Below are positions 328 to 28,930 of a DNA stretch of 64,000 nt, piece after piece (the first letter of the stretch is position 1; each line of letters opens with the position of its first letter). The position numbers and the translations under genes are program-made. The notes under the pieces were generated by a model. The model was not told the origin of the DNA. It worked only from the letters and a program-made list of their open reading frames with translations, and did not search any database. The stretch is from assembly GCA_046583365.1 (NCBI GenBank), contig JAYGCL010000038.1, positions 9,720 through 73,719 of the forward strand, written 5' to 3'. This DNA comes from Deltaproteobacteria bacterium. GTDB lineage: Bacteria > Desulfobacterota > Binatia > UBA1149 > CAYXZP01.

Positions 328-1512
328 TTGACCTCATCCGATACCAGACGGGCAATATCCATCCTCGGATCGACAGGTTCGATCGGCACCACATCGCTGG
401 ACGTTGTGGGGCGTTTTGAAGACCGTTTCCGAGTGGTCGGGCTGGCCGCCGGCCGCCGCGTGGGCCTGCTCAAGGAGCAGATAGAGCGTTTTCGTCCGTC
501 CATCGTCTCGGTTGCCGATGCCGCCGAGGCTGCCCACCTTGCCGAGGCGCTTGGCCGGGGTGGCCCCAGGGTCTGTCACGGTGCTGAGGGCCTTGTTGCC
601 GTGGCCACCGCCACGGGTACCGATGTCCTGGTCTCCGCGTTGGTTGGTGCCGTGGGTCTTGGCCCCACGCTGGCGGCTGTGGACGCGGGAATCACCGTGG
701 GGTTGGCCAACAAGGAAGTGATGGTTGTGGCCGGCCAACTTATAGTCGCCCACGCCCGCGCCGCCGGTGCCCGTGTGTTGCCGGTTGATAGCGAACACAA
801 TGCAATCTTTCAGGCCTTGCAGGGGCGCCGTAGCCAGGACGTAAGGCGCATTGTGCTGACGGCTTCGGGCGGACCCTTTCGCGAAACCTCCGGGCCCGAG
901 TTGGAACGCGTCACCAGGGGGCAGGCGCTTGCCCACCCCACCTGGCAGATGGGCGACAAGATCAGCATCGATTCGGCCACGCTCATGAATAAGGGGCTCG
1001 AGGTTATCGAGGCGCGGTGGTTCTTTGACGTTGAGTCGGCAGCCATCGATGTGGTTGTCCACCCCCAGAGCATCGTCCATTCGATGGTCGAATACCGCGA
1101 CGGCACCGTGATTGCGGTGTTGGCGATACCCGACATGTCGATTCCCATAGCCTACGCGTTGTCGTGGCCCGACCTCCTCGACCTCGGCTACCTGCCCTCT
1201 CTCGACCTTGCAGAGGTCGGTACCCTGACTTTTGGCAAGCCCGACATCGGGCGCTTTCCCTGTCTGCGCCTTGCCTATGATGCCCTGGCTGCCGGCGGCA
1301 CCATGCCGGCCGTTACCAATGCTGCCAACGAAGTGGCGGTGGCGCGTTTTCTTGCCGGCGACATCGGCTTTACCGATATCCCACGCGTGATTGAGGGCAC
1401 CATGAACGACCACCATGCGTGTTCCTACTCCACCGTAGACGACCTGTTGGCCGTCGATGGTTGGGCGCGGGAGAGGGCCTCTGCCCTGGAAGGCCACCGG
1501 GCCATTGCGTGA
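328..1512 (+). CDS. dxr: 1-deoxy-D-xylulose 5-phosphate reductoisomerase
   Basis: ILGSTGSIG NADPH-binding motif, NKGLE and conserved C-terminal blocks; 394 aa; TTG start at 328. Confidence 0.9.
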   Translation: MTSSDTRRAISILGSTGSIGTTSLDVVGRFEDRFRVVGLAAGRRVGLLKEQIERFRPSIVSVADAAEAAHLAEALGRGGPRVCHGAEGLVAVATATGTDVLVSALVGAVGLGPTLAAVDAGITVGLANKEVMVVAGQLIVAHARAAGARVLPVDSEHNAIFQALQGRRSQDVRRIVLTASGGPFRETSGPELERVTRGQALAHPTWQMGDKISIDSATLMNKGLEVIEARWFFDVESAAIDVVVHPQSIVHSMVEYRDGTVIAVLAIPDMSIPIAYALSWPDLLDLGYLPSLDLAEVGTLTFGKPDIGRFPCLRLAYDALAAGGTMPAVTNAANEVAVARFLAGDIGFTDIPRVIEGTMNDHHACSYSTVDDLLAVDGWARERASALEGHRAIA

Positions 1513-3409
1513 TCTGCGTCGTTTCCTTTGCCCGGCCGTAGTCGTTGCGGCGGCGGCCCTGGCTCTGCGTCGTCTCGATGATTTTGACACCTGGTGGCAC
1601 CTGGCCGCTGGCCGTTGGATCTTCAACAACCGCGAGGTTCCACTGACCGACACCCTCTCCTATTCGGTGCCTGCCAATGCGTGGACCGATGTGCAGTGGC
1701 TATACGACCTTGCGCTCTACGGTCTTTACCAGGCCGGTGGTGCCGGAGCCCTGGTGCTGGCCACCACTGTTATTCTAACCGCGGCCGTGGCGCTCATGCT
1801 GCGCAACATGAGGATGTTTGCCGGTCCGGTCCTGTCGGCGCTGGTCGGCATATGGGTTGTGTTGGTGGCCGAAGAGCGTTTCTTGATACGGCCGGAATCC
1901 GTTTCCCTGTTGCTCCTGCAAGTACTGCTCTACGTGCTGTTGAGTGCTGCCCATGGCCACGGCAAACGACTCTGGTTGTTACCACCCCTGATGGTTCTGT
2001 GGGCTAACACCCATGCCCTTTTTATAATAGGCGTTTTCCTCGTTGGTGCGGTCACGGCAGTGACGGCCGTTGGCCAACTGATGGCCGCGGCCGCATGGGC
2101 GGTGCCGTCCGTCCTCAAGCCTTTCCAACCACCGGCCGCCCGGCAAATGCTGGTCATCGGCCCGCTGTCGGTGGTGGCCACGCTGTGTAACCCCTATCTG
2201 TCGGACGGAGTGCTTTTCCCGCTCGGCCTGCTGTCACGCATAGACGGGTCGCAGGCTGTTTTCCGCGCCATCGGCGAGTTCCGGCCGCCCTTTTCCGACT
2301 TCTTTCCCACCTCGGCGCTCATGGCCTACCAGACCCTGTTCGTGTTGGCGGTGGCGGTGGTGGCTTGGGCATTTTTGCTACGTTTGCTGCGGCGCCGTTC
2401 CCCCCAGGACCTGGGCTTGGCGGGGTTGGTTATATTTGCCGGCCTGGCCTGGCTCTCCCTGCTCGCCCGCCGCAACATCGCTATCTTTGCCATGGGAACG
2501 GCACCGTTTATTGTGTCTGCTCTTGCCTTTACCGGCACCGGTCTTTTCGCCGCCGGTAGAGTTCGTGGCCGTGTCACACAAGCGCTGTCGGCCGTCTTCC
2601 TGGCCTCCGTCGTTTTGTTCGTTGCGGCCGTGGCCACCAACCAGTGGTACCGTTTGTCGGGTACGACCCACGAATTCGGCCTTGGCGTGTTGGAAGAAAA
2701 TTTTCCTTCCAGGGCGGTGGCTTTTACCCGTGAGACCGGACTCCCGGGACCGCTCTACAATGACTTAAGCAGCGGTGGCTACCTTAGTTGGGACAGCCCT
2801 GTTCCAGGCGGCGTCTTTATAGATGGACGGCTCGAAGTGTACGGTGCTGAGTTTTTTTCCAGTTACCGTTCGGCGCTGTCCAACCCTAGAAAGTGGCAGC
2901 TTCAGTCTGCAAAGTACGCGGTCAACACCGTCATCATGTTTCACCGTTGGGGTGACAGGCAACCCATAGTTCGATGGCTCTTCGACAATCCAGCCTGGTC
3001 TTTAGTCTACCACGACGAGGTGGCCGTGGTGTTTGTCCGAAGCCAGGGTAACGCCGATGTAATCAGGCGGGCCCGTATGGAGTTTCCTCTCTGGTACGAC
3101 GGTAATCGGCGTCGTCTGCTTGGCGCCACCCCCGTCCTGGTCTGGCCTCTTGGCCGCGTGGCCGGACTCATCGCTTACGGCAACCTGCTCTTTAACCTGG
3201 GCGAGGACCATGCGGGTGCCGAAATGTACGCTCGGGCGGCCGACCTTGGGCCCAAGGCGCATATAGAGTCCAAGCTGCGCTACCGGATTGCCCGCCACCT
3301 GGCCCGTAGGGGGGAAACGGCCGCCGCCCGCCTGGGCCTCGGACTGGCCCTGGGTCTGGACCCCGGCAACAGCCGGGCCCGGGAGATGTTGGAACGCCTT
3401 GGCCAATGA
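1457..3409 (+). CDS. polytopic membrane protein (GT-C-like glycosyltransferase fold?) with C-terminal TPR-like repeats
   Basis: About 12 predicted hydrophobic helices; first loop RRLDDFDTWWHLAAGRW (acidic/aromatic motif as in GT-C enzymes); C-terminal soluble tail with TPR-like repeats (LGLGLALGLDPGNSRAREMLERLG). True start probably downstream of 1457 (e.g. TTG ~1505) because dxr ends at 1512. Confidence 0.55.
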   Translation: MVGRGRGPLPWKATGPLRDLRRFLCPAVVVAAAALALRRLDDFDTWWHLAAGRWIFNNREVPLTDTLSYSVPANAWTDVQWLYDLALYGLYQAGGAGALVLATTVILTAAVALMLRNMRMFAGPVLSALVGIWVVLVAEERFLIRPESVSLLLLQVLLYVLLSAAHGHGKRLWLLPPLMVLWANTHALFIIGVFLVGAVTAVTAVGQLMAAAAWAVPSVLKPFQPPAARQMLVIGPLSVVATLCNPYLSDGVLFPLGLLSRIDGSQAVFRAIGEFRPPFSDFFPTSALMAYQTLFVLAVAVVAWAFLLRLLRRRSPQDLGLAGLVIFAGLAWLSLLARRNIAIFAMGTAPFIVSALAFTGTGLFAAGRVRGRVTQALSAVFLASVVLFVAAVATNQWYRLSGTTHEFGLGVLEENFPSRAVAFTRETGLPGPLYNDLSSGGYLSWDSPVPGGVFIDGRLEVYGAEFFSSYRSALSNPRKWQLQSAKYAVNTVIMFHRWGDRQPIVRWLFDNPAWSLVYHDEVAVVFVRSQGNADVIRRARMEFPLWYDGNRRRLLGATPVLVWPLGRVAGLIAYGNLLFNLGEDHAGAEMYARAADLGPKAHIESKLRYRIARHLARRGETAAARLGLGLALGLDPGNSRAREMLERLGQ

Positions 3410-4644: not shown

Positions 4645-6029
4645 TGGGCCACCGCCTGGGGGTTGCGGTGTTGGTCGAGGGCAGCCAGGAAGGCCTTTGC
4701 CTTGGTGTGGGTTTCTTCGATTTCTTTTTCCAGTTCGGAATCAGCGACGATGCCGCCCCCGGTCATGTAGTGGATATAACGGCCGTCGCACACGGCCGTT
4801 CTGATTGCGATGTTGAGGTCGCAGGACCGTGAACCGTTGAAAGAGCCGATAGCTCCGGTGTACACACCGCGGGCCGAAGGTTCGACTTCGGCTATGATCT
4901 CCATGGCGCGTATTTTTGGTGCACCCGTGATCGACCCGCCCGGAAAGGTGGCTTTCAAGATGTTTCCTATACGGCAGTCCTGGCGCAGGACGCCGCTTAC
5001 CTTGGAAACCAGGTGGTGGACTGTGGCAAACGATGCCACCTGTGCGTAACTGTCCACCTTTACCGTTCCTGTCTTGCATATGCGGCCGAGGTCGTTGCGC
5101 TCAAGATCCACAATCATGACGTGTTCGGCCAGCTCTTTCGGGTCGCTGCGTAGCTGTGTCCGTGCCGCCTCATCATCGCTGGGGTTTTCGTGGCGGGGCC
5201 TGGTTCCTTTTATGGGGTAGGTGGAGATGAGGTCGCCCTGGATTTTGAGGAAACTTTCGGGCGAGTTGCTGAGCACCGTCAAGGTCCCGGTATCGAGATA
5301 GGCTCCCTGCGATACGGGCTGTATGTGTCTGATACGCCGGTATATGCAGACCGGGTCGTCGTTGAGTTGCATCGTGATCTTTCTGGCCAGGTTGGCCTGG
5401 TAGATCTCCCCTGCGGCGATGGCCTCCTTTATGCGGGCGAACGCCTTTTTGTAGTCTCGCCGCCAGCGCTCTTCGCTGACCGGTCCCTGGTCTTGTTGCC
5501 GTGGCCGCTCCTGGCCGTCGCCGAGTCTGCGCAACTCGCGGGCGGCGCTTGCCGGCACCGCCCCCCGGCCGGGCTGAGGCTGGAAGTTTATGCTTGTGGC
5601 GTTGCCGGTTCTCGCGTCCCAACGGTCGACGCGGTCGTAGGTCGACAGCAGGGCCAGCGGGGTTGTGCCCGACAGCGACCCGCCCCCCCCCCGGCCCTGG
5701 TCCATGAAGGCCCCCAGTTCGTAGGCCAGATAGCCCACGGTGCGGGGCGGTGCGGGGTCGTCCACACTTCCCCCCACGGGCTCGGCCGCGCTCTCTTCTA
5801 CAAAGGCCTCGATAGAGTCCAGGGGCCGGCGGCCATCGGGTTGCCACCCCCTGTCGGTCCACAGCAGGCAAGTGCCGTTGGCCAGTACGGCGAGTTGGGC
5901 AACCGGCTGAGAACCGGCAAAAGCCGATCCCGTGTCGCCTGCCCGGTCAAGAAAAAACGCGTAGGGGCGGCTCGCATGGTTGACGAACATCGCCCACGGG
6001 CCTGCCGGTCTGTAGTCTGGGTTTGGCAT
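4641..6029 (-). CDS. pabB: aminodeoxychorismate synthase component I (chorismate-binding enzyme)
   Basis: Chorismate-binding domain motifs FPGGSITGAPKIRAMEII, AIRT, MTGGGIV. Called PabB rather than TrpE because of the translationally coupled pabC. Confidence 0.8.
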   Translation of the reverse strand: MPNPDYRPAGPWAMFVNHASRPYAFFLDRAGDTGSAFAGSQPVAQLAVLANGTCLLWTDRGWQPDGRRPLDSIEAFVEESAAEPVGGSVDDPAPPRTVGYLAYELGAFMDQGRGGGGSLSGTTPLALLSTYDRVDRWDARTGNATSINFQPQPGRGAVPASAARELRRLGDGQERPRQQDQGPVSEERWRRDYKKAFARIKEAIAAGEIYQANLARKITMQLNDDPVCIYRRIRHIQPVSQGAYLDTGTLTVLSNSPESFLKIQGDLISTYPIKGTRPRHENPSDDEAARTQLRSDPKELAEHVMIVDLERNDLGRICKTGTVKVDSYAQVASFATVHHLVSKVSGVLRQDCRIGNILKATFPGGSITGAPKIRAMEIIAEVEPSARGVYTGAIGSFNGSRSCDLNIAIRTAVCDGRYIHYMTGGGIVADSELEKEIEETHTKAKAFLAALDQHRNPQAVAQ

Positions 6030-20573: not shown

Positions 20574-22199
20574 CTATGCCAAGGCGGCCAACGCGGCCGG
20601 CGCGGCATAGCCCGCGGCCTCGGCGGCCTTGGCAAATTCCCCGCCCCCCAGCGTATCGGCCACGGCCTTGCCGCAGGCCGAAGCCGCGAAGACCCTCTCC
20701 ATAACGATAACCCTGGAGTCAGACTCAAGACCTTTGAGCAGCCAGGCCTGGGGTGGGTTTGGAGCTTTGGCGAGCAAGGTCGGCAACTCCATGCCTTTGG
20801 CCTCCACGATTGCCAGATGGGACTCACCGGCCAGCAGCGAGACCTCGGCTGCCGGTCCGGCCAGGTCCAGGCATACCGGCTTGAGGCCGGGCAGGCCGGG
20901 GTGGGCGGTCGCCAGAAGGTCCTCGAGGGTCTCGACCAGGGTCTCATGGGTGGTGGCGACGACAAGGTTGGCAGCGGCCTCGGCCTCGGTTTTGAGCAAC
21001 TCCACCTCGACCATACTACCGGCATCGATGCCCTGGCTGGCCGCTTTTATCCTCAGTATGCCGTCGGCGCGGGCAATTGTGCTGATGGAACCGGCCCCGC
21101 GCGGCAAGGGGGCGACAACGAAACCGCCCCCGCACGGAGTCAGACAGACCCGTACAAATTCCTCCACACCCAGCTTGGACGGCAACGCTCTTTTTACTTC
21201 GGCCCTTACAGTTGCCACCGCTTGTGGGCAGGCGCCCAGCATTGCCAGCAGCAGGGGGCCGAGCAGTTCACGGCAGACCAGGATGGCTGAGACCGGGTAA
21301 CCGGGAATGGCGATTACCGGGGTGGAGCACACACTGGCAAACGCCACCGGTTTGCCTGGCATCATATCTACACCGTGTACTACAAGCTTGCCCAGTCTGG
21401 CCAGAGTCGGGACGGTAAAATCGCGCCGACCTTTTGAACTCCCGGCTATGACGCAAACGATGTCGTGGGAGATGGCTGCGTCGCTTATGGCTGATGCCAG
21501 GGACTCCTCGTCGTCGCCGGCCAGACCGAGGTAGCGGGCGTCTCCCCCCCACTCCTGGATCATTGCGGCCATTACCCTGGAGTTGAACTCTATGACCTGG
21601 CCGGGTTGGGCCGCGGGGCCGGGCTCTATGACTTCGGCGCCGGTAGCGATGATAGCCACCGTTGGTGCTCGACCTACCTCGACGGTGGTAACCGAGGTGG
21701 CCAGCATGGCGCCGATGTCAAAGGGCCGTATGCGGCGTCCGCCGCCGAGCAGCACCCGGCCGGCCTCCATGTCTTCTCCAATGCGGCGGACGTCGCGGCC
21801 CGGGGGGGCCGCCTCGGCTATACGCCAGCCACCGTCTACCCGTGTTGTATTTTCGATACGCACTACAGAGTCCGCCCACGCCGGCATAGCGGAGCCGGTG
21901 TCTACCGCCGAGGCCGGCAGTGGGGTGTCGTCGGGGCTACCGCCACTGCCCACGTCGCCCAGCGTAATGGGGTTGTCCCCGGCGGCAGCCATTGTATCGG
22001 CCGAACGTACGGCTATGCCGTCCATTGCCGCTGCACGGTAGTGGGGAGAGGCGGTGTGGGCCCTGACGGTGGCGGCGGTTATCCGGCCGAGGGCGTTCTG
22101 GACCTCGACCTCTTCGCTTCCTGCACGTTTGGTCGCCAGCCCGAGGAGTATCGCGCGGGCCTTATCCAGGGGTTGGCGTGGAGGGGAAGGGTCGCCCAT
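20574..22199 (-). CDS. moeA: molybdopterin molybdenumtransferase MoeA with extra C-terminal PBP-like domain
   Basis: MoeA N-, MPT-binding and C-terminal domains (AAMDGIAVRSADT, GGVSMG-type block IAGSSKGRRDFT) followed by ~130 extra residues resembling a periplasmic-binding-protein-like domain. Confidence 0.7.
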   Translation of the reverse strand: MGDPSPPRQPLDKARAILLGLATKRAGSEEVEVQNALGRITAATVRAHTASPHYRAAAMDGIAVRSADTMAAAGDNPITLGDVGSGGSPDDTPLPASAVDTGSAMPAWADSVVRIENTTRVDGGWRIAEAAPPGRDVRRIGEDMEAGRVLLGGGRRIRPFDIGAMLATSVTTVEVGRAPTVAIIATGAEVIEPGPAAQPGQVIEFNSRVMAAMIQEWGGDARYLGLAGDDEESLASAISDAAISHDIVCVIAGSSKGRRDFTVPTLARLGKLVVHGVDMMPGKPVAFASVCSTPVIAIPGYPVSAILVCRELLGPLLLAMLGACPQAVATVRAEVKRALPSKLGVEEFVRVCLTPCGGGFVVAPLPRGAGSISTIARADGILRIKAASQGIDAGSMVEVELLKTEAEAAANLVVATTHETLVETLEDLLATAHPGLPGLKPVCLDLAGPAAEVSLLAGESHLAIVEAKGMELPTLLAKAPNPPQAWLLKGLESDSRVIVMERVFAASACGKAVADTLGGGEFAKAAEAAGYAAPAALAALA

Positions 22200-22205
22200 G
22201 GCCGT

Positions 22206-23441
22206 TTAGAAAAGAAGCACCTCGACTTCTTCTCCTGCCTGCAGTCCCTCGCTTGAGGGTTTGATGCAAACCATGCCGTCGGCACCGGCTATGGTTGAGA
22301 GTGCGGCAGACTTTCCTCTCAGTGGGACGGCCGTGGCCAGTGTCGTGCCGGGCTCCAGTTTGACGCGAACGTAGTTTTCGCGGCCTGCTGTTGCACCGAC
22401 AGCCGAGGCCAACAGCGCCCTTGTCCGTGGCCGTGTGAGCATCACCCTTTGCAGGGGTTCGCCTCCCAGGACCCGGATCAGGGTGGAGCCGAACAACGTA
22501 AAGACCACCGCCGCCGCGGCCGGGTTGCCGGGCAGCCCCATCACCGCCGAGCCCTTGCAGCTTGCCAGTATGGTTGGTTTGCCCGGTGCAATGGCCACGC
22601 CGTGAAACAGAGCCCTGGCTTCGGGCAGGGTTTTTATAGCGGCCATGGTGAGGTCTCGTGTACCCATCGAGCTTCCCCCCGAGACAAAAACGCAGTCGTT
22701 GGCCGTGGTTGCCTCGGCCAGGCAATCGCAAAGTTCACGTTTGCGGTCGCCGACCACTCCGTAGTCGACGACTATGGCGCCGAGGCTACGGGCCAGTGCG
22801 CCCAGGGCGTACTGGTTTACGTTCCTGACCTGGCCGGGCCTCAGTTCCTCGCCCGGTTCCACGATTTCGTCGCCGGTGACTATGATGCCCACCCGCGGCA
22901 GACGGTAGGCCGTGAACGTGGTTACCCCGATGCCGGTCAGCGCTCCTACATCACCTCCGCTGAGACGGCGGCCCTTCTGGAAAACCTGGTCTCCGATTTT
23001 CAGATCCTCTCCCAGACGTACGAGATTCTGACCTGGCACTGCTTCGGCCTTTATCAGCACCGTGCCCTCGATGGGTTCCTCGGTGTTTTCCACGATAACC
23101 ACCGCGTCGGCACCCGCCGGCATCATTGCGCCGGTCGAGATCGCCATGGCGCTGGCCTCGGACAGGCCGGGGGCGGCTTGTTCACCGGCGTTGATACGTC
23201 CGCTTACGGGTAGACTTACCGGTGAGGTTTCGGACGCACCGAAGGTGTCACAGGCACGCACGGCATAGCCGTCCATGTTGGAACGCTCAAAGTGGGGGAC
23301 GTTTTCGGCCGAACTGATGTCTTCGGCCACGACCCTCCCGCAGGCCGAGCGCGAGTCCACATTCTCGGTTTCCACCACCGGCATATTGCCGATGTGGTCG
23401 TAGGCCTGGTCGGCGCTTATGAGTTGGAAAAATGGTTTCAC
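22206..23441 (-). CDS. moeA: molybdopterin molybdenumtransferase MoeA (second paralog)
   Basis: Canonical MoeA blocks (ERSNMDGYAVR, GGSSMGTRD, PGNPAAA); 411 aa. Confidence 0.8.
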   Translation of the reverse strand: MKPFFQLISADQAYDHIGNMPVVETENVDSRSACGRVVAEDISSAENVPHFERSNMDGYAVRACDTFGASETSPVSLPVSGRINAGEQAAPGLSEASAMAISTGAMMPAGADAVVIVENTEEPIEGTVLIKAEAVPGQNLVRLGEDLKIGDQVFQKGRRLSGGDVGALTGIGVTTFTAYRLPRVGIIVTGDEIVEPGEELRPGQVRNVNQYALGALARSLGAIVVDYGVVGDRKRELCDCLAEATTANDCVFVSGGSSMGTRDLTMAAIKTLPEARALFHGVAIAPGKPTILASCKGSAVMGLPGNPAAAAVVFTLFGSTLIRVLGGEPLQRVMLTRPRTRALLASAVGATAGRENYVRVKLEPGTTLATAVPLRGKSAALSTIAGADGMVCIKPSSEGLQAGEEVEVLLF

Positions 23442-24380: not shown

Positions 24381-24977
24381 ATGGCTGATGACCGGATTAT
24401 AAAGCGCTACGCCAACCGCAAGCTCTACGACAAGCATGCCTCCCGCTATGTGACTCTGGACGGGATAGCCGAGCTTCTCCGTAAGGGGGAGGACATCAAG
24501 GTAATCGACAACGATAGCGGTGATGACCTGACCGCCGTTACCTTCGCCCAGATCATTCTCGAAGAAGAGAAAAGCAAGAAGCATTTTATCTCGGTGTCTT
24601 TTCTCCGTCGGGTGATCCGTGACGGTGAAGAGCGTATCCAGGATTTTTCCGACCGGGCCACCCACGGCATCGAGGTTTTGGGCGGGCTCACCGAACGTGC
24701 CCTCGGTGAGAGCATCTCGTTCTTTGATGACCTTTTCGGTTCTTCACGAGACACCGTGACCGCACTCAGGCAAGCCGCGGCCAGTGCCGCCGAAAAGTTT
24801 CGTGCGAACCCGACCGTCAACCAGGAACTGGCACGGGTGGAGAGCAGCCTGCGGTCTCTTGAGGAGGCAATATCGCGTTTGCACGACGACCAGGAGCAGG
24901 CCCCGGACCGTGATAACGAGGGCGCCGTTGCCGCTACGGTTGAAGAACCTGACCCGTCGGAGAAGACTGGCGTTTAA
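24381..24977 (+). CDS. phaR: polyhydroxyalkanoate synthesis repressor PhaR
   Basis: N-terminal IKRYANRKLYDKHASRYVTLDGIAELLRKGEDIKVIDNDSGDDLTAVTFAQIILE (PHB accumulation regulatory domain hallmark). Confidence 0.75.
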   Translation: MADDRIIKRYANRKLYDKHASRYVTLDGIAELLRKGEDIKVIDNDSGDDLTAVTFAQIILEEEKSKKHFISVSFLRRVIRDGEERIQDFSDRATHGIEVLGGLTERALGESISFFDDLFGSSRDTVTALRQAAASAAEKFRANPTVNQELARVESSLRSLEEAISRLHDDQEQAPDRDNEGAVAATVEEPDPSEKTGV

Positions 24978-25009
24978 ACCCCGCCGGCAACGTTACCTTC
25001 CAGTCGCCC

Positions 25010-25357
25010 ATGGCCAAACAGGTTCTATCTGCTTCTTCCAAACGGAAGAAAGACGACGAGAGTCGCCAGCGGGAACTTCTGACCAGACTCAAGAAGATTG
25101 CCGAAAGTCTTGGTACGGAGGTACGCGAGGAACGTCTTTTTCGTGACCTCGGCTACAAAGCCAGAAGTGGTGTTTGTCGGGTGGATGGTCGCGAGGTGCT
25201 ATTGCTGGACCGCAACGTAAGTGTCACCGAACGGGTAGACACACTGCTGGATTTTCTTGCCGGCTGTGAGCTGGACACATCCGTCATCGACCCCGACCTC
25301 CGCGACCTGATTGTGGTGCGCGTGTCGCGCAGGGTCGCTGGGGCATCGGAGGTTTAG
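25010..25357 (+). CDS. small hypothetical protein (basic N-terminus), tightly coupled upstream of fur
   Basis: 115-aa ORF, stop 4 nt before the fur GTG; no family recognised. Confidence 0.4.
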   Translation: MAKQVLSASSKRKKDDESRQRELLTRLKKIAESLGTEVREERLFRDLGYKARSGVCRVDGREVLLLDRNVSVTERVDTLLDFLAGCELDTSVIDPDLRDLIVVRVSRRVAGASEV

Positions 25358-25361
25358 GGCA

Positions 25362-25796
25362 GTGACCACTAAGTTTGAGCGTTTCCACGCCTATATCGAC
25401 GAGCAGGGGTTAAAGTCTACCAAGCAGCGTGACGACATCGCCGTATGGTTTTTTTCCACCAAGGGCCACATCAGCGTCGACGACATTCATGCCAAGGTAA
25501 AACGTATCAATTCGCACATAGGGCTTTCGACGGTCTACCGGACGATGCGACTCTTGTGTGACGCAGGCCTGGTGCACGAGCGCCACTTTGGTGACGGTGA
25601 GGCCCTCTACGAGAACGTTGTTTCCCACCACGACCATTGTATCTGTACGTCCTGCGGGAAGATCATAGAGTTTGAGAATCCCAGGATAGAGGAACTGCAG
25701 GACGCCGTGGCCAGTCGTTTCGGGTTCGAATTGCACAGCCACAAGATGGAACTGTACGGGCTCTGCAAGGCTTGCCAGTCTTCCCGCCATAGCTGA
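25362..25796 (+). CDS. fur: Fur-family transcriptional regulator
   Basis: HHDHCICTSCGKIIEF...HSH...LYGLCKAC metal-site motifs and N-terminal winged helix (KSTKQRDDIAVWF); GTG start chosen to avoid overlap with preceding ORF. Confidence 0.8.
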   Translation: MTTKFERFHAYIDEQGLKSTKQRDDIAVWFFSTKGHISVDDIHAKVKRINSHIGLSTVYRTMRLLCDAGLVHERHFGDGEALYENVVSHHDHCICTSCGKIIEFENPRIEELQDAVASRFGFELHSHKMELYGLCKACQSSRHS

Positions 25797-25849: not shown

Positions 25850-25868
25850 GATACTGACAATCATATTC
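25850..25868 (+). promoter_or_regulatory. candidate Fur box upstream of the cytochrome c/FTR1 gene
   Basis: GATACTGACAATCATATTC matches the 19-bp Fur consensus GATAATGATAATCATTATC at 15/19 positions; 44 nt upstream of the 25912 start. Confidence 0.5.
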
Positions 25869-25911
25869 AATTAAGCCGCTGTCGGGCCCTCGCCGCGCTG
25901 CCTGAAAACCC

Positions 25912-28158
25912 GTGCGTGTACATGCAAAACCCAGGGCGGGTTACATTGCCCTCCTCATTTTCCTGGCTGCTCTGTTGGCGGCTCCCCTGCCGCTGGGGGC
26001 TTCGGGGCCGGATGCCGACGGCCGCGGGCTGGCCCCTGCCACTCAGTTGGGCATGTTGCGTATGGCCCTGCAGGAGTACCGGGAAGGGGTGGTCGGGGGT
26101 GTGGTCGTGGACGCCCACGAGTTGGACACGGCCGAAAGACTTCTCGACGAGTTGTCGGCCTCCGTCCCGTCTGCTGAATTGTCGGCCATACGTGGGTTGG
26201 TTGCCCGCCGTGCCAGCCGCGCCGATGTCGAGTCGGCCCTGTCGGTCTGGGTGGCATCCTATGGAGCCGGCATCAAGCCACCGCAGCCGTCCCTTGCGCC
26301 CTCGCTGTCCCAGGGACGCCGTCTCTTCGGCCGCTATTGCAGTGCCTGCCATGGAGACAATGGCGACGGCCGTGGACCTCTGGCGGCCGGCATCGAAGGT
26401 GTCAAGCCCGTAGATTTTTCCGACCAGGGTTTAATGGCTGGCGAGACGCCCGAGGAGTTCTTCCAGGCCATCACCATCGGCGTTCCGGGTACGGCCATGC
26501 CGTCCTGGGACACCGTTTTAACAGCCCAGGAACGTTGGGACCTGGTCGCCCATCTGTGGATGATCAGAACTCCCGACATCGATAACACTGAGCTTGAGTC
26601 CTGTTCTTCCTGCCATGTGGACAGTGGTGGTCTTGCGCCGCTCGACAAAAGTGACGGTGAGGTTCTCCTGCGGCTGATCAATTCAAGGGTGCATGTGCGG
26701 GAGGCGGTCGTTGATGCCGAACATGCAGTGGGTCTGGCCAGACGGATGGGTTTTGTGGTCCGTCGCCAGGGAGAGGGCCAGGGTACGGAGGTTGAACCCC
26801 GCCACGTGCTGGTTGCCCTCAGGCTGGTGGATGAAGAGTACCGCGATGCGGTGGCCGACGGCCGGGTCATAAACAGCGTGGAGTACGGCGAGACCCGGCT
26901 CTTTCTTGGCAGCCTTCTCGATGACCTGGCCAGCCTGGAGCGCCGGGGCCGGTCTGTGGGTGATGAGGCCGGCCGTCTGGCCATCGAACTCCAGGAGGCC
27001 GTCTACGCCAAGGCCGACCCCGCCGAGGTGTCCCGTCTTGCCGCCAGTCTGGAAGAGATTCTCGCAGAGGCCTTTGGCGGGGTGGTGGCCGGCCGGGGGT
27101 GGGAGGAGGTACGCGACCTTCTGGCCCGGGCCCAGGCCGAGACCTCCCCGTCGGCCGCTTCGGCACTGGTGTTGGATGCCTACATGGCCTTTGAGCCACT
27201 GGAGAAGAGGTTGGCGGTCAGGGACGCCGGCTTTACGGCTGCTATAGAGGCGGATTTTCTGGCCCTGCGCTCGCGTATCTCTGCCGGCCACAACGCCGAG
27301 GAGGATTTTGAACGACTTGGGGCCGGTCTTGTACGGGCCGAGGGGCTGCTGGCCTCGGGCCAGGGAGTTTGGGCAGCTTTTGCCAACGCCCTTCTCATCA
27401 TTCTTCGCGAAGGCCTTGAAGCCATACTCATCATAAGCGCCCTTGCCGCCTATCTCGGCAAGGGCGGGCACCTGGTTGCGCGGCGCTGGCTCTACGAGGG
27501 GGCTATGGTCGGGATCGTAGCCAGCCTGCTCACGGCACTGGCCTTTGAAGCTCTGCTCGGCGGTTTGCCCCTGGGCCAGGAAGCGCTCGAAGGCATAACC
27601 ATGCTGTTGGCCGCAGCCGTTCTGTTCTCGGTAAGTTACTGGCTTATCTCCAAACTCGAAGCCCGCCACTGGCAGGCTTACATTCGCAACCAACTCGACC
27701 GGGCTTTGGGGCGGGGGTCGCGGCTGGCCATGGCCGGGGTCGCCTTCCTGGCCGTATACCGGGAGGGCTTCGAGACGGTGCTGTTCTATCGGGCCCTGGT
27801 CGGGGAAGCCGGGGCGGTAACCGCCGTTGGTGCGGGTTTCGTCCTGGGCTGTCTGCTGCTGGTGGTAGTTTACGTGGCCATCGCGCGCTTCAGTGTGGCG
27901 ATTCCTCTGCGGCAGTTTTTCTCGATTACCGGTGGCCTGCTCTACCTGCTGGCCTTCCGCTTTACCGGTACGGGGATAGCCGAACTGCAGGAGGCCGGTA
28001 TGATCGCGGTTACAGAGGTGGCCTGGTGGCCACGCTTGTCGGTGTTGAGTATGGCACCGAACCTGGAGACCGCCCTGGCTCAGATGATCCTGGTGGTGGC
28101 GGCCCTGGTCGGTGTGGTGGTTATTGTTGTTGGCGGTCGGCGCCAGGCGACGGCCTGA
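25912..28158 (+). CDS. cytochrome c/FTR1-family iron permease (diheme cytochrome c domain fused to FTR1/EfeU-type permease)
   Basis: Signal peptide, two CxxCH heme motifs (CSACHGDNG, CSSCHVD), ~300-aa helical linker, then 7-TM FTR1 domain with two REGxE motifs (REGLEAIL, REGFETVL). Confidence 0.75.
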   Translation: MRVHAKPRAGYIALLIFLAALLAAPLPLGASGPDADGRGLAPATQLGMLRMALQEYREGVVGGVVVDAHELDTAERLLDELSASVPSAELSAIRGLVARRASRADVESALSVWVASYGAGIKPPQPSLAPSLSQGRRLFGRYCSACHGDNGDGRGPLAAGIEGVKPVDFSDQGLMAGETPEEFFQAITIGVPGTAMPSWDTVLTAQERWDLVAHLWMIRTPDIDNTELESCSSCHVDSGGLAPLDKSDGEVLLRLINSRVHVREAVVDAEHAVGLARRMGFVVRRQGEGQGTEVEPRHVLVALRLVDEEYRDAVADGRVINSVEYGETRLFLGSLLDDLASLERRGRSVGDEAGRLAIELQEAVYAKADPAEVSRLAASLEEILAEAFGGVVAGRGWEEVRDLLARAQAETSPSAASALVLDAYMAFEPLEKRLAVRDAGFTAAIEADFLALRSRISAGHNAEEDFERLGAGLVRAEGLLASGQGVWAAFANALLIILREGLEAILIISALAAYLGKGGHLVARRWLYEGAMVGIVASLLTALAFEALLGGLPLGQEALEGITMLLAAAVLFSVSYWLISKLEARHWQAYIRNQLDRALGRGSRLAMAGVAFLAVYREGFETVLFYRALVGEAGAVTAVGAGFVLGCLLLVVVYVAIARFSVAIPLRQFFSITGGLLYLLAFRFTGTGIAELQEAGMIAVTEVAWWPRLSVLSMAPNLETALAQMILVVAALVGVVVIVVGGRRQATA

Positions 28159-28930
28159 AAAAAAGTCCGGCCGCGTTCTCCCCTGTTTTGTCGACCACTT
28201 CTTCGAGGTCTACTTTCTTGAGTTCGGCCAGAGCCACAGCCACCTCTTTTACGAAAGCGGGTTCGTTGCGCTTGCCGCGGTGGGGAACGGGGGCGAGGTA
28301 GGGCGAGTCGGTCTCTACCATCAGGCGGTCCAGGGGCAGCCGGCTCACGGTGTCGCGCAGCTCGTCGGCCTTGCCGAAGGTGATAATGCCGGTCAGCGAG
28401 ATCATCAGTCCTAAATCGAGATAGGCCCGGGCATCTTCATAAGACCCGGTAAAGCAGTGGACGACCCCGCGCAGGCCGTCTCCCGAGTGGGCTCTGAGTA
28501 TCTCAAGCATGTCGTCTTCGGCGTTGCGACAGTGCAGGACGATGGGCACGCGATGTTTTCTGGCCAGTTCCAGATGGCGCAGCAACGACTCTCGCTGTTG
28601 GTCGTGGGGGCTGTGATTATAGTGATAGTCGAGTCCGGTTTCTCCTACCGCCACAACCTCTGGTTTTTGCAGCAGTGTTTCTATGCGTTGCTCGATGCTG
28701 TCGTCGTAGCTGTCGGCATCGTGGGGGTGTATACCCGCGGTGGAACGCATGAATGGGTATTGGGAAGCCAGGCGGGCGGCGTCCTCGCTGGCCTCGATCG
28801 GTCCGCCCCCTCCCACCGCCACAATCTGTGTGACTCCGGCATCGTGGGCTCTTTTAATGACCTCTGCCCGGTCATCGTCAAAAGCGGGGTCACTTAGATG
28901 GCAGTGTGTGTCGGTCAGTCCTGTTGCCAT
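28121..28930 (-). CDS. tatD: TatD-family metal-dependent hydrolase
   Basis: TDTHCHL N-terminal His motif and conserved TatD blocks (HCF, ETDSPYL); 3' end overlaps the convergent FTR1 gene by 38 nt. Confidence 0.85.
   Translation of the reverse strand: MATGLTDTHCHLSDPAFDDDRAEVIKRAHDAGVTQIVAVGGGGPIEASEDAARLASQYPFMRSTAGIHPHDADSYDDSIEQRIETLLQKPEVVAVGETGLDYHYNHSPHDQQRESLLRHLELARKHRVPIVLHCRNAEDDMLEILRAHSGDGLRGVVHCFTGSYEDARAYLDLGLMISLTGIITFGKADELRDTVSRLPLDRLMVETDSPYLAPVPHRGKRNEPAFVKEVAVALAELKKVDLEEVVDKTGENAAGLFFRPSPGADRQQQ

What the first reader, a model, noticed from the sequence alone, without database searches (positions are those of the whole stretch)
25850..28158. Fur box in front of a diheme cytochrome c / FTR1 fusion permease: self-contained redox-coupled iron uptake unit
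A 748-aa protein joins a periplasmic N-terminal domain with two CxxCH heme-binding motifs to a C-terminal FTR1/EfeU-type permease with both REGxE iron-translocation motifs, via a ~300-aa helical linker. FTR1 permeases normally need a separate redox partner (Fet3 multicopper oxidase, P19/cupredoxin in FtrABCD); here the partner appears to be fused as a c-type cytochrome. A 15/19 match to the Fur consensus lies 44 nt upstream, and fur plus a small unknown ORF are encoded immediately upstream on the same strand.
Basis: partly seen in the sequence, partly recalled or inferred. Interest (0 to 1): 0.55.

Follow-up and report, generated by a model that had tools for sequence, protein, structure and literature searches.

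The report
Fur-controlled cytochrome c–FTR1 iron permease
A single gene in an uncultured Binatia-type bacterium fuses two haem-binding cytochrome c modules to an FTR1-type iron permease and sits behind a conserved Fur box; the description is accurate, but the fusion belongs to a widespread, already annotated family that includes the lead-uptake protein PbrT, so it is a well-documented ordinary case rather than a new system.

Summary
ORF 25912-28158 (+) encodes 748 aa with a signal peptide, a class I cytochrome c domain (CxxCH at 143-147), a second CxxCH (231-235) and a C-terminal 7-TM FTR1 permease carrying REGLE (499-503) and REGFE (617-621). The 15/19 Fur box at 25850-25868 is the best match in the window (0.015 expected per 64 kb). 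It is conserved upstream of all five orthologues examined. The order phaR - small ORF - fur - permease recurs in four lineages.

Two corrections:
- The "linker" is a conserved periplasmic helical domain. Its last part is shared with FetM-type and PbrT-type long FTR1 permeases, and an earlier part duplicates the N-terminal helical module.
- The second haem sits in a shrunken domain where an invariant His261 stands in for the Met ligand of distant relatives, so it is probably bis-His.

The fusion is not new. NCBI names relatives "cytochrome c/FTR1 family iron permease", PbrT of pMOL30 has the same architecture, and at least 578 species genomes encode relatives.

Most likely mechanism (inferred): an oxidase-permease system in which the haems take the electron from Fe2+. 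The opposite direction, ferric reduction, is not excluded. Verdict: new member of a known kind, modest interest.

The parts
25850..25871 (+). Fur box: the 19-mer at 25850-25868 matches the consensus 15/19. Its 7-1-7 core is TGACAAT-C-ATATTCA. The conserved block GATAnTGAnAATCAtATTCAAt extends to 25871.
   Evidence: Best match in the window, 0.015 expected per 64 kb. The same block lies upstream of the orthologues in L002, L004, L005, L006 and L007, inside otherwise diverged GC-rich intergenic DNA.
25912..28158 (+). Gene for the 748-aa cytochrome c/FTR1 family permease (GTG start; the stop codon is included).
25912..26004 (+). Signal peptide (about aa 1-31, MRVHAKPRAGYIALLIFLAALLAAPLPLGAS).
   Evidence: Hydrophobic segment at 5-33 and helix 7-23 in the model. 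The cleavage site is inferred.
26035..26262 (+). Periplasmic helical module 1 (aa 42-117) carrying the conserved E55 Y56 E58 ... E70 motif (QEYREGVxGGxVVxxxE).
   Evidence: E55, Y56, G63 and E70 are at least 90% conserved in 84 relatives. Helices 42-59, 68-84, 88-98 and 103-117 in the model. The module is also present in PbrT and the Croceicoccus protein.
26287..26571 (+). Class I cytochrome c domain 1 (aa 126-220). CxxCH at aa 143-147 (nt 26338-26352); the Met ligand candidate is M196 in GTAMPSW.
   Evidence: Pfam PF13442 and PF00034. PDB relatives are 6h5l_B and the ACIII ActE subunits. C143, C146, H147 and M196 are invariant.
26572..26781 (+). Reduced second haem domain (aa 221-290). CxxCH at aa 231-235 (nt 26602-26616); the invariant His261 (nt 26692-26694) is the candidate distal ligand.
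   Evidence: In the 10-member close clade only 6 of 70 positions are invariant: C231, C234, H235, D248, H261 and R277. Position 261 is Gly in the distant clade, which has a full second domain with an MP Met ligand.
26782..27375 (+). Periplasmic helical domain (aa 291-488), in two parts: module 2 (EEYRDAVADGRVINSVEYGE, a repeat of module 1) and the pre-TM helices carrying Y424, E431 and E446.
   Evidence: Domain model pLDDT 91.9. Residues 304-360 resemble the N-terminal module of PbrT-type proteins. Residues 398-488 align with a FetM-type permease and 305-488 with the Shinella FTR1 protein. Y424, E431 and E446 are invariant across all 7 subfamily representatives.
27376..28155 (+). FTR1 permease domain (aa 489-748) with 7 TM helices. 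REGLE at aa 499-503 (nt 27406-27420) lies in TM1; REGFE at aa 617-621 (nt 27760-27774) lies in TM4.
   Evidence: Pfam PF03239, E 2.9e-40. Helices in the model. Positive-inside count. R499, E500, G501, E503, R617, E618, G619 and E621 are invariant in 84 sequences.
25362..25796 (+). fur (144 aa, GTG start preceded by GGAGG). The protein has an HHDH motif and two CxxC pairs.
   Evidence: Pfam FUR, E 3.8e-35. The best NCBIfam hits are Fur-type, all below their cutoffs. Gene call on the public contig; sequence. fur sits directly upstream of the permease in L002/L003, L005 and L006.
25010..25357 (+). Conserved small ORF (115 aa) of unknown family between the phaR-like gene and fur. It ends 4 nt before the fur start codon.
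   Evidence: No Pfam or NCBIfam hit. Orthologues occupy the same position in three other lineages, with 63% mean column identity.
24381..24977 (+). PhaR-like regulator gene, the first gene of the conserved phaR - ORF - fur - permease arrangement.
   Evidence: PF07879, E 1.6e-26; synteny.
28121..28930 (-). Convergent tatD-family gene that overlaps the permease 3' end by 38 nt. It marks the end of the unit, so there is no downstream partner gene.
   Evidence: PF01026, E 1.8e-86. The same neighbour occurs in the orthologous loci.

Best explanation
This is a Fur-repressed, single-gene, high-affinity iron importer of the cytochrome c/FTR1 (PbrT-type) branch of the FTR1/ILT permease family, in a Binatia-like bacterium.

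Proposed working, with the basis of each step:
1. When iron is sufficient, Fe-Fur (encoded just upstream) sits on the 7-1-7 box at 25850-25871 and blocks transcription. Under iron shortage the gene is expressed. This is inferred from the conserved box.
2. The protein is exported by its signal peptide. Both CxxCH motifs receive covalent haem in the periplasm, and the C-terminal 7-TM domain anchors the protein with its N-terminal part outside. Topology is predicted; haem attachment is inferred.
3. Fe2+ binds to carboxylate/tyrosine sites in the periplasmic helical domain (E55/Y56/E58/E70, E309/Y310, Y424/E431/E446) above TM1. This is inferred from conservation.
4. Fe2+ is oxidised there. The electron passes through the probably bis-His haem 2 and the His/Met haem 1 to the soluble cytochrome/terminal-oxidase pool. 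The Fe3+ is handed directly to the REGLE/REGFE pathway in TM1 and TM4 and crosses the membrane. This is the oxidase-permease logic established for Fet3p-Ftr1p and proposed for EfeUOB and FtrABCD. Here a c-type cytochrome would replace the copper oxidase, cupredoxin or peroxidase. The step is inferred by analogy.

Identity, architecture and regulation are well supported. The direction of electron flow is the weak step.
For: Architecture:
- Pfam FTR1 plus Cytochrome_CBB3/Cytochrom_C.
- Both CxxCH and both REGxE motifs are invariant in relatives.
- Confident AF2 model (pLDDT 87.8) with a signal helix, a periplasmic domain and 7 TM helices. The positive-inside count puts the N-terminal part outside.

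Family:
- Relatives are named 'cytochrome c/FTR1 family iron permease'.
- PbrT of pMOL30 has the same Pfam architecture and aligns at E 3e-45.
- 56 of 84 relatives carry two CxxCH motifs.

Regulation:
- The Fur box is unique in the window and conserved upstream of five orthologues, including one locus (L004) that has lost the fur neighbour.
- fur adjacency is conserved in four lineages.

Link between redox partners and long FTR1 permeases:
- In Shinella a multihaem cytochrome gene directly precedes, and overlaps, a homologous long FTR1 gene, with an imelysin gene nearby.
- The E. coli plasmid homologue sits with P19 and an FtrD-like Fe-S protein.
- The Croceicoccus cytochrome c/FTR1 gene is followed by a multicopper oxidase gene.
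- The literature states that P19/FTR1 clusters carry varied redox partners and remain mechanistically uncharacterised (PMC8238504), and that Chlamydomonas FOX1 oxidises Fe2+ for FTR1 (PMC7247011).

Electron sink:
- Binatota genomes encode ACIII plus complex IV (PMC8262859).
- The closest solved relatives of haem domain 1 include ACIII monohaem subunits.
Against: - No experiment exists on any cytochrome c/FTR1 protein in the searched library that shows what the haem domain does.
- A bis-His haem 2 would usually have a low potential, which suits an electron donor (reductase) as well as a relay.
- PbrT, the only named relative, is described as a Pb(II) uptake protein (PMC1526738), so substrate specificity in this branch is not settled.
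- No sigma-70-like promoter was recognised around the box.
- Most Gemmatimonadota relatives lack a good match to the E. coli Fur consensus, so Fur control is shown only for the Binatia-type clade.
Confidence: 0.5

Rival explanations
1. Same protein, opposite electron flow: an assimilatory ferric reductase-permease. Electrons from the respiratory cytochrome pool enter haem 1, pass to the low-potential haem 2, and reduce Fe3+ (hydroxide or chelate) held on the helical domain. The released Fe2+ is then taken through the permease.
For: - The probable bis-His ligation of haem 2 (invariant H261 where distant relatives have the Met ligand) fits a low-potential donor.
- Binatota are described as aerobes (PMC8262859), so environmental iron would be mostly Fe3+.
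- Periplasmic reductive steps linked to iron transporters are widely proposed (PMC8238504).
- A reduction/re-oxidation route is proposed for cyanobacterial cFTR1 (title cited in PMC11221513; bioRxiv 10.1101/2021.11.08.467730).
Against: - The FTR1 paradigm (Fet3p-Ftr1p, FOX1-FTR1; and established knowledge) couples oxidation, not reduction, to permeation.
- The conserved periplasmic residues are Glu and Tyr, which favour Fe3+ binding.
- In Croceicoccus a multicopper oxidase gene follows a cytochrome c/FTR1 gene, which points to oxidative chemistry in this branch.
- Electron flow from a His/Met haem to a bis-His haem would be uphill.
Confidence: 0.25
2. The cytochrome module does not act on the metal. 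It works as a redox or oxygen sensor that gates the permease, or as an anchor to a respiratory complex, and the permease takes up Fe2+ or Fe3+ without obligatory redox chemistry.
For: - 28 of 84 relatives make do with a single haem, and FetM-type homologues have none. The permease core therefore does not strictly need a fused haem.
- The helical domain with Y424, E431 and E446 is conserved whether or not a cytochrome is present.
Against: - Where the cytochrome is missing, another redox protein is encoded next door: P19 plus an FtrD-like protein, a multihaem cytochrome, or an imelysin. This argues for substitution of a catalytic partner.
- The CxxCH motifs and Met196 are invariant across the fused family.
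Confidence: 0.12
3. It is a PbrT-like importer of another metal (Pb2+, or another divalent or trivalent cation) rather than an iron transporter.
For: - PbrT of pMOL30 shares the architecture and is described as a Pb(II) uptake protein (PMC1526738).
- The Croceicoccus homologue lies among efflux and cation-transporter genes.
Against: - A conserved Fur box and an adjacent fur gene.
- No MerR/PbrR-type regulator, P-type ATPase or other resistance gene in the window locus or its orthologous loci.
- Both iron-permeation REGxE motifs are intact.
Confidence: 0.05

Closest known systems
PbrT of Cupriavidus metallidurans CH34 plasmid pMOL30, and the NCBI-named class 'cytochrome c/FTR1 family iron permease'
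   Same: - Order of parts: signal peptide, helical module with a [ED]Y...V..G....EY.E motif, class I cytochrome c domain (Pfam PF13442/PF00034), pre-TM helices, then a 7-TM FTR1 domain with two REGxE-type motifs.
- BLASTP E 3e-45 over residues 74-733.
- The same Pfam trio occurs in all 120 listed relatives but one, which has no Cytochrom_C (PF00034) hit.
   Different: - PbrT is about 640 aa with one haem motif. It lies in a MerR-type (cadR/pbrR) and P-type ATPase lead-resistance locus and is described as a Pb(II) importer.
- The window protein has an extra segment of about 180 aa (second CxxCH mini-domain plus a second helical module).
- It is a stand-alone chromosomal gene behind fur and a Fur box.
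Full dihaem cytochrome c/FTR1 proteins of Binatia and Gemmatimonadota (e.g. P0011, P0012, P0018; 790-910 aa)
   Same: - Two CxxCH motifs 88-92 residues apart, two helical modules, and the same permease.
- 34-38% identity over more than 90% of the length.
   Different: - They have a complete second class I domain with the MP(x)F Met ligand, and often a C-terminal cytoplasmic extension.
- The window clade lacks about 30 residues of that domain and carries invariant His261 instead of the Met ligand.
- The periplasmic part aligned as one end-to-end stretch to only 3 of the 150 best-listed cluster representatives, in a library of 1.84 billion.
FetM-type long FTR1 permease with P19/FetP (E. coli plasmid locus, L008)
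   Same: - 39% identity over query residues 398-724. This spans the pre-TM periplasmic helices with Y424, E431 and E446, and the whole permease.
   Different: - No cytochrome domain.
- The partner functions are encoded separately: P19 (PF10634) and an FtrD-like Fe-S membrane protein.
Shinella pShin-02 cluster: imelysin, DUF4405, multihaem cytochrome c, long FTR1
   Same: - A long FTR1 protein (769 aa) aligns with query residues 305-736, including helical module 2 (EY..AV.DG.V...EY.E).
- A c-type cytochrome is functionally linked to it.
   Different: - The cytochrome is a separate multihaem protein of a different family (Cytochrome_C554/c7-like).
- An imelysin (Peptidase_M75) partner is also present.
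Fet3p-Ftr1p (yeast), FOX1-FTR1 (Chlamydomonas), EfeUOB and FtrABCD (bacteria)
   Same: - Permease family, the two RExxE motifs in TM1 and TM4, and the N-out 7-TM layout.
- The principle that a periplasmic or extracellular redox protein works with the permease (otherwise established knowledge recalled from memory).
   Different: - The partner there is a multicopper oxidase, a cupredoxin, or a DyP haem-b peroxidase, encoded by a separate gene.
- Here it is one or two covalently bound c-type haems in the same polypeptide, and no such partner gene is adjacent.

Membership tests
FTR1 / iron-lead transporter (ILT) permease family (Pfam PF03239) | Match to the family HMM above the curated threshold | tested here: met
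   PF03239 scores 138.8 bits against a cutoff of 25.3, at residues 494-695. The NCBIfam EfeU/Ftr1 models match but fall below their equivalog cutoffs, so it is not an EfeU orthologue.
FTR1 / iron-lead transporter (ILT) permease family (Pfam PF03239) | Two RExxE iron-permeation motifs, in TM1 and TM4 | tested here: met
   REGLE at 499-503 lies in helix 486-517 and REGFE at 617-621 lies in helix 604-633. Both are invariant in 84 relatives.
FTR1 / iron-lead transporter (ILT) permease family (Pfam PF03239) | Seven TM helices, N-terminus outside and C-terminus inside | tested here: met
   Seven C-terminal helices in the AF2 model. K+R is 3, 5 and 2 in loop 1-2, loop 3-4 and the C-tail, against 0, 0 and 1 in loops 2-3, 4-5 and 6-7. 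This is prediction only.
FTR1 / iron-lead transporter (ILT) permease family (Pfam PF03239) | Iron transport activity | not testable with these tools
   Needs 55Fe uptake in a transport-deficient host.
Cytochrome c/FTR1 family iron permease (PbrT type) | Class I cytochrome c domain (CxxCH plus distal Met) N-terminal to the FTR1 domain in one polypeptide, on the periplasmic side | tested here: met
   PF13442 and PF00034 at residues 132-216; C143, C146, H147 and M196 are invariant. A signal peptide and N-out topology are predicted.
Cytochrome c/FTR1 family iron permease (PbrT type) | Full-length homology to named members | tested here: met
   BLASTP against PbrT of pMOL30 gives E 3e-45. Against the Croceicoccus 'cytochrome c/FTR1 family iron permease' it gives E 3e-48 plus E 2e-15 for the N-terminal part.
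Cytochrome c/FTR1 family iron permease (PbrT type) | Covalently bound haem | not testable with these tools
   Needs haem staining or mass spectrometry. No cytochrome c maturation genes were identified among the window genes examined; the rest of the genome is not available.
PbrT lead-uptake function (pbr operon) | Location in a MerR-type (PbrR) regulated locus with a PbrA P-type ATPase | tested here: not met
   The window locus and its orthologous loci carry phaR, a small ORF, fur and tatD, with no MerR-family regulator or ATPase. pMOL30 has them.
Fur regulon member | Fur-box match in the promoter region | tested here: met
   15/19 to the consensus with 7-1-7 core TGACAAT-C-ATATTCA, ending 43 nt upstream of the start codon. 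It is the best match in the window, with 0.015 expected by chance.
Fur regulon member | Conservation of the site in orthologous promoters | tested here: met
   Matches of 14-16/19 at the equivalent place in L002, L004, L005, L006 and L007. Each is the best match in its whole locus. Binatia-like L014 scores 14/19 and L013 (titled Deltaproteobacteria) 13/19. Most Gemmatimonadota loci have no comparable match.
Fur regulon member | Fur binding and iron-responsive expression | not testable with these tools
   Needs EMSA or footprinting, and expression data.
EfeUOB / FtrABCD / FetMP multi-gene systems | Adjacent genes for EfeO/EfeB, a P19 and cupredoxin pair, or FetP | tested here: not met
   None appears in the gene lists of the window locus or of orthologous loci L002, L005 and L006.
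Imelysin / EfeM (Peptidase_M75) fold for the helical periplasmic domain | Sequence or structural similarity to M75 domains | tested here: inconclusive
   - Foldseek with the domain model puts EfeM 7q1g_A first and Algp7 5y4c seventh, but only at E 0.74 and 1.8 with TM about 0.3.
- No Pfam hit.
- No PDB hit with the profile.
- hhalign against a Peptidase_M75 protein gives 1% probability.
Class I cytochrome c (for the second haem site) | CxxCH plus a distal Met in a domain of about 80-100 aa | tested here: not met
   CxxCH is present and invariant. The domain is cut to about 55-70 aa, is not recognised by Pfam, and lacks the Met. Clade-invariant His261 takes that region instead. It is best described as a derived, probably bis-His, haem site.

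The most novel reading that the evidence does not exclude
The Binatia clade protein is a complete copper-independent haem ferroxidase-permease in one polypeptide.
- Fe2+ is captured by duplicated Glu/Tyr helical modules.
- It is oxidised through a derived bis-His haem, wired to a His/Met haem.
- The Fe3+ is channelled straight into the REGxE pathway.
This would be the first case in which c-type haem replaces the copper oxidase, cupredoxin or peroxidase of all characterised FTR1 systems. It would also assign a function to the whole 'cytochrome c/FTR1' family, PbrT included.
Probability: 0.4. Interest if true: 0.5.

Novelty: new member of a known kind. Interest (0 to 1): 0.3.

Why it matters
FTR1-type permeases are a major high-affinity iron route in fungi, algae and many bacteria, including pathogens. 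How the periplasmic redox step is coupled to permeation is still unsettled for the bacterial systems.

A fused cytochrome would be a convenient single-protein model for that coupling. It would also show a copper-independent way of doing it.

For this window the practical value is smaller:
- It gives a clean, phylogenetically footprinted Fur box and a Fur-regulated importer for the uncultured Binatia.
- It documents a derived second haem site.

It does not reveal a new kind of system. The architecture is already named in public annotation and is present in PbrT.

Tried and rejected
1. Imelysin/EfeM identity for the helical 'linker'. There is only a weak, non-significant Foldseek hint. Pfam, PDB profile search and hhalign give no support. 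It is left as inconclusive.
2. Solved structures for the permease. None was found by sequence or by Foldseek; only cytochrome c hits appeared.
4. Sigma-70 promoter and terminator scans around the Fur box. No promoter-like site was found, and terminator-like hits were at chance level.
5. Literature on the fusion.
   - The phrase 'cytochrome c FTR1' gave no paper.
   - FTR1 with 'cytochrome c domain', 'c-type cytochrome' or 'fusion' gave nothing on this architecture.
   - PbrT with cytochrome gave only the description of PbrT as a Pb(II) uptake protein.
   - Whether Synechocystis cFTR1 (Slr0964) carries a cytochrome domain could not be checked.
6. Fur boxes upstream of 72 more distant relatives, mostly Gemmatimonadota. 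Only a few reach 13-15/19, so Fur control cannot be generalised beyond the Binatia-type clade using the E. coli consensus.
7. Chance explanation for the Fur box. Rejected.
8. Second CxxCH as a meaningless relic. Rejected, because CxxCH and H261 are among only 6 invariant positions out of 70 in that segment.
9. Partner genes elsewhere in the window. The genes examined are housekeeping genes: rpoD, dnaK, PPDK, fumarase, tRNA synthetases, two moeA copies, tmk and holB.


Full report
**1. The observation**

The ORF at 25912-28158 (+) starts with GTG and encodes 748 aa. An identical protein is called on an independent public contig.

Pfam finds FTR1 at residues 494-695 (E 2.9e-40). It finds Cytochrome_CBB3 and Cytochrom_C at 132-216 (E 2.9e-13 and 7e-9). 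NCBIfam gives only sub-threshold EfeU/Ftr1 matches, so the protein is not an EfeU orthologue.

The motifs are CSACH at 143, CSSCH at 231, REGLE at 499 and REGFE at 617.

The sequence GATACTGACAATCATATTC at 25850-25868 matches the 19-bp Fur consensus at 15/19.
- It is the single best match in the 61.5% G+C window; the next best scores 13/19.
- 200 first-order Markov randomisations give 0.015 matches of this quality per 64 kb.
- It ends 43 nt before the start codon.

fur lies directly upstream (Pfam FUR, E 3.8e-35). The public gene call and the GGAGG in front of GTG 25362 indicate a 144-aa product rather than the mechanical 161-aa ORF. It carries an HHDH motif and two CxxC pairs. A 115-aa ORF (25010-25357) with no family match precedes fur.

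**2. Anatomy**

An AlphaFold2 model built on 84 relatives is confident, with mean pLDDT 87.8. It shows, in order:

| Residues | Element |
|---|---|
| 7-23 | signal helix |
| 42-117 | helical module |
| about 126-220 | cytochrome c domain |
| about 221-290 | short second haem segment |
| 296-481 | long helical domain |
| 486-747 | seven TM helices |

REGLE lies in the first TM helix and REGFE in the fourth. Lys+Arg counts are 3, 5 and 2 in loop 1-2, loop 3-4 and the C-tail. They are 0, 0 and 1 in loops 2-3, 4-5 and 6-7. With the signal peptide, this puts everything N-terminal of residue 488 in the periplasm, including both CxxCH motifs.

**3. Conservation**

In 17 relatives reaching down to 34% identity, both CxxCH motifs, Met196 (GTAMPSW) and both REGxE motifs are invariant. 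In 84 relatives both REGxE motifs stay invariant and CxxCH 1 is at least 90% conserved.

Of the 84 relatives, 56 have two CxxCH motifs spaced 88-92 residues apart, and 28 have one.

In distant dihaem relatives (P0011 and similar, 790-910 aa) the second motif sits in a complete class I domain with an MP(x)F Met ligand. In the window's clade (10 sequences, 47-55% identical) that domain has lost about 30 residues and is not recognised by Pfam.
- Only 6 of its 70 positions are invariant: C231, C234, H235, D248, H261 and R277.
- Position 261 is Gly in the distant clade.
- The pattern fits a retained haem whose distal ligand has changed from Met to His. This is an inference.

The periplasmic part aligned as one end-to-end stretch to only three of the 150 best-listed cluster representatives, in a library of 1.84 billion. 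This exact version therefore looks like a small clade.

**4. The 'linker' is a domain**

- Residues 304-360 (EEYRDAVADGRVINSVEYGE) repeat the motif of the N-terminal module (QEYREGVVGGVVVDAHE). They align with the N-terminal module of PbrT-type proteins.
- Residues 398-488 align, together with the permease, to an E. coli plasmid FTR1 protein that has no cytochrome (39% identity).
- Residues 305-488 align to a Shinella long FTR1 protein.
- Across these subfamilies Y424, E431 and E446 are invariant. E55, Y56 and E70 are at least 90% conserved in the fused family.
- These Glu/Tyr clusters are the natural candidates for periplasmic iron sites. This is an inference.

A separate model of residues 290-488 (pLDDT 91.9) gave no significant PDB match. 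EfeM (7q1g) ranked first and Algp7 seventh, at E about 1 and TM about 0.3. Pfam, a PDB profile search and hhalign against a Peptidase_M75 protein gave nothing. The fold assignment stays open.

**5. Regulation and context**

The order phaR-like gene - small ORF - fur - permease - convergent tatD recurs in three further lineages whose permeases are only 49-55% identical. In a fourth lineage (L004) the permease sits in an unrelated context without fur.

In all of them the best Fur-box match of the entire locus lies just upstream of the permease gene:

| Locus | Sequence |
|---|---|
| L002 | GATATTGACAATCAGTTTC |
| L004 | GATATTGAAATTCATATTC |
| L005 | GATTTTGACAATCATATTC |
| L006, L007 | GATAATGAGAATCATATTC |

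This is a clear phylogenetic footprint in otherwise diverged GC-rich spacers.

No accessory iron gene (P19, EfeO, EfeB, cupredoxin, multicopper oxidase) flanks the gene in any of these loci. The rest of the window is housekeeping. No sigma-70-type promoter was recognised.

Among 72 more distant relatives with a usable upstream region, mostly Gemmatimonadota, only a few have a comparable box. Fur control is therefore shown for the Binatia-type clade only.

**6. What is already known**

Sources name relatives 'cytochrome c/FTR1 family iron permease' or 'FTR1 family protein' from Binatia, Elusimicrobia and Gemmatimonadaceae. Plasmid records carry the same name.

On pMOL30 of Cupriavidus metallidurans, the FTR1 gene next to cadR/pbrR and the P-type ATPase is in the position of pbrT. 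It encodes 642 aa with Cytochrome_CBB3 plus FTR1 and aligns to the query at E 3e-45. PbrT is described as the Pb(II) uptake protein of the pbr locus (PMC1526738).

The fusion is thus an established and common architecture.

I found no paper in the library that tests what the cytochrome does.

**7. Mechanism**

Long FTR1 permeases travel with varied redox partners:
- P19 plus an FtrD-like Fe-S protein in E. coli plasmids;
- an imelysin plus a multihaem cytochrome whose gene overlaps the FTR1 gene in Shinella;
- a multicopper oxidase next to a cytochrome c/FTR1 gene in Croceicoccus;
- FMN-binding or thioredoxin-like proteins (PMC8238504).

Eukaryotic FTR1 works with a ferroxidase (PMC7247011; Fet3p-Ftr1p from established knowledge).

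By analogy, I consider it most likely that Fe2+ bound to the Glu/Tyr sites is oxidised by the haems. The Fe3+ would then pass to the REGxE pathway. The electron would leave to the cytochrome/oxidase pool; Binatota encode ACIII and complex IV (PMC8262859), and the nearest solved relatives of haem domain 1 include ACIII monohaem subunits.

The reverse flow (ferric reductase), a sensing or docking role, and a non-iron substrate remain possible, in that order of likelihood. 'Self-contained' is too strong, because an external electron partner is required either way.

**8. Verdict**

The finding is real and accurately described. Its regulatory part is strengthened by comparative evidence. It is a new member of a known and widespread family, not a new system.

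The points that go beyond existing annotation are:
- the derived, probably bis-His, second haem site;
- the duplicated Glu/Tyr helical module;
- the Y424/E431/E446 triad shared with FetM-type and PbrT-type permeases;
- the conserved fur-linked Fur box in Binatia.

Interest is modest (0.3). It would rise if biochemistry showed a haem-based ferroxidase.

Noticed in passing
window 25010-25357 (+): A 115-aa ORF with no Pfam or NCBIfam family lies between the phaR-like gene and fur and ends 4 nt before the fur start codon. Orthologues occupy the same position in three other lineages (63% mean column identity; invariant core EVRE..L.R..GY..RSG.C...GR..LLLD). It may be a Fur- or PhaR-associated factor.
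   Followed up: partly
window 24381-25796 (+): A PhaR-like (PHB_acc_N) regulator gene is conserved directly upstream of the small ORF and fur in four lineages. This is an unexplained linkage between a polyhydroxyalkanoate-type regulator and iron regulation.
   Followed up: partly
window 55848-58280 (-) and 58277-60685 (-): Two adjacent, overlapping large ORFs (810 and 802 aa) have no Pfam match at E <= 1e-5.
   Followed up: no
window 1457-3409 (+): A 650-aa ORF has no Pfam match at E <= 1e-5.
   Followed up: no
window 28121-28158: The permease gene and the convergent tatD-family gene overlap by 38 nt at their 3' ends. No terminator-like structure was found there.
   Followed up: partly
window 20574-23441 (-): Two tandem MoeA-type molybdopterin molybdotransferase paralogues (541 and 411 aa) are followed by a CN_hydrolase gene. 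The arrangement is conserved in the orthologous loci.
   Followed up: no
L004 about 5440-5610 (upstream of the P0007 orthologue): The long 568-nt upstream region contains about 2.5 tandem copies of a ~75-nt unit (GGCTTCGGTTCAxTTTTTCTCxTTTGxCGGCAATCAATCTGGCTTGCGATCTGCTCTGCATTTTCTGTT), well upstream of the Fur box.
   Followed up: no
L010 966-6437 (Shinella sp. HZN7 plasmid pShin-02): A four-gene cluster encodes an imelysin, a DUF4405 protein, a multihaem c-type cytochrome and a long FTR1 protein, with overlapping gene ends. It looks like an unfused counterpart of the cytochrome c/FTR1 fusion and appears uncharacterised.
   Followed up: partly
L009 4080-7636 (Croceicoccus marinus plasmid pCME4A9II): A cytochrome c/FTR1 family gene is immediately followed by a multicopper oxidase gene and preceded by a cation transporter gene, inside a metal-efflux neighbourhood. 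A cytochrome and a copper oxidase may therefore act together in some members.
   Followed up: partly
loci L015-L091 (genome-contig scan): The great majority of the 80 best genomic relatives come from Gemmatimonadota MAGs. Most of them lack an E. coli-type Fur box upstream, which suggests a different regulator or a different Fur motif in that phylum.
   Followed up: partly
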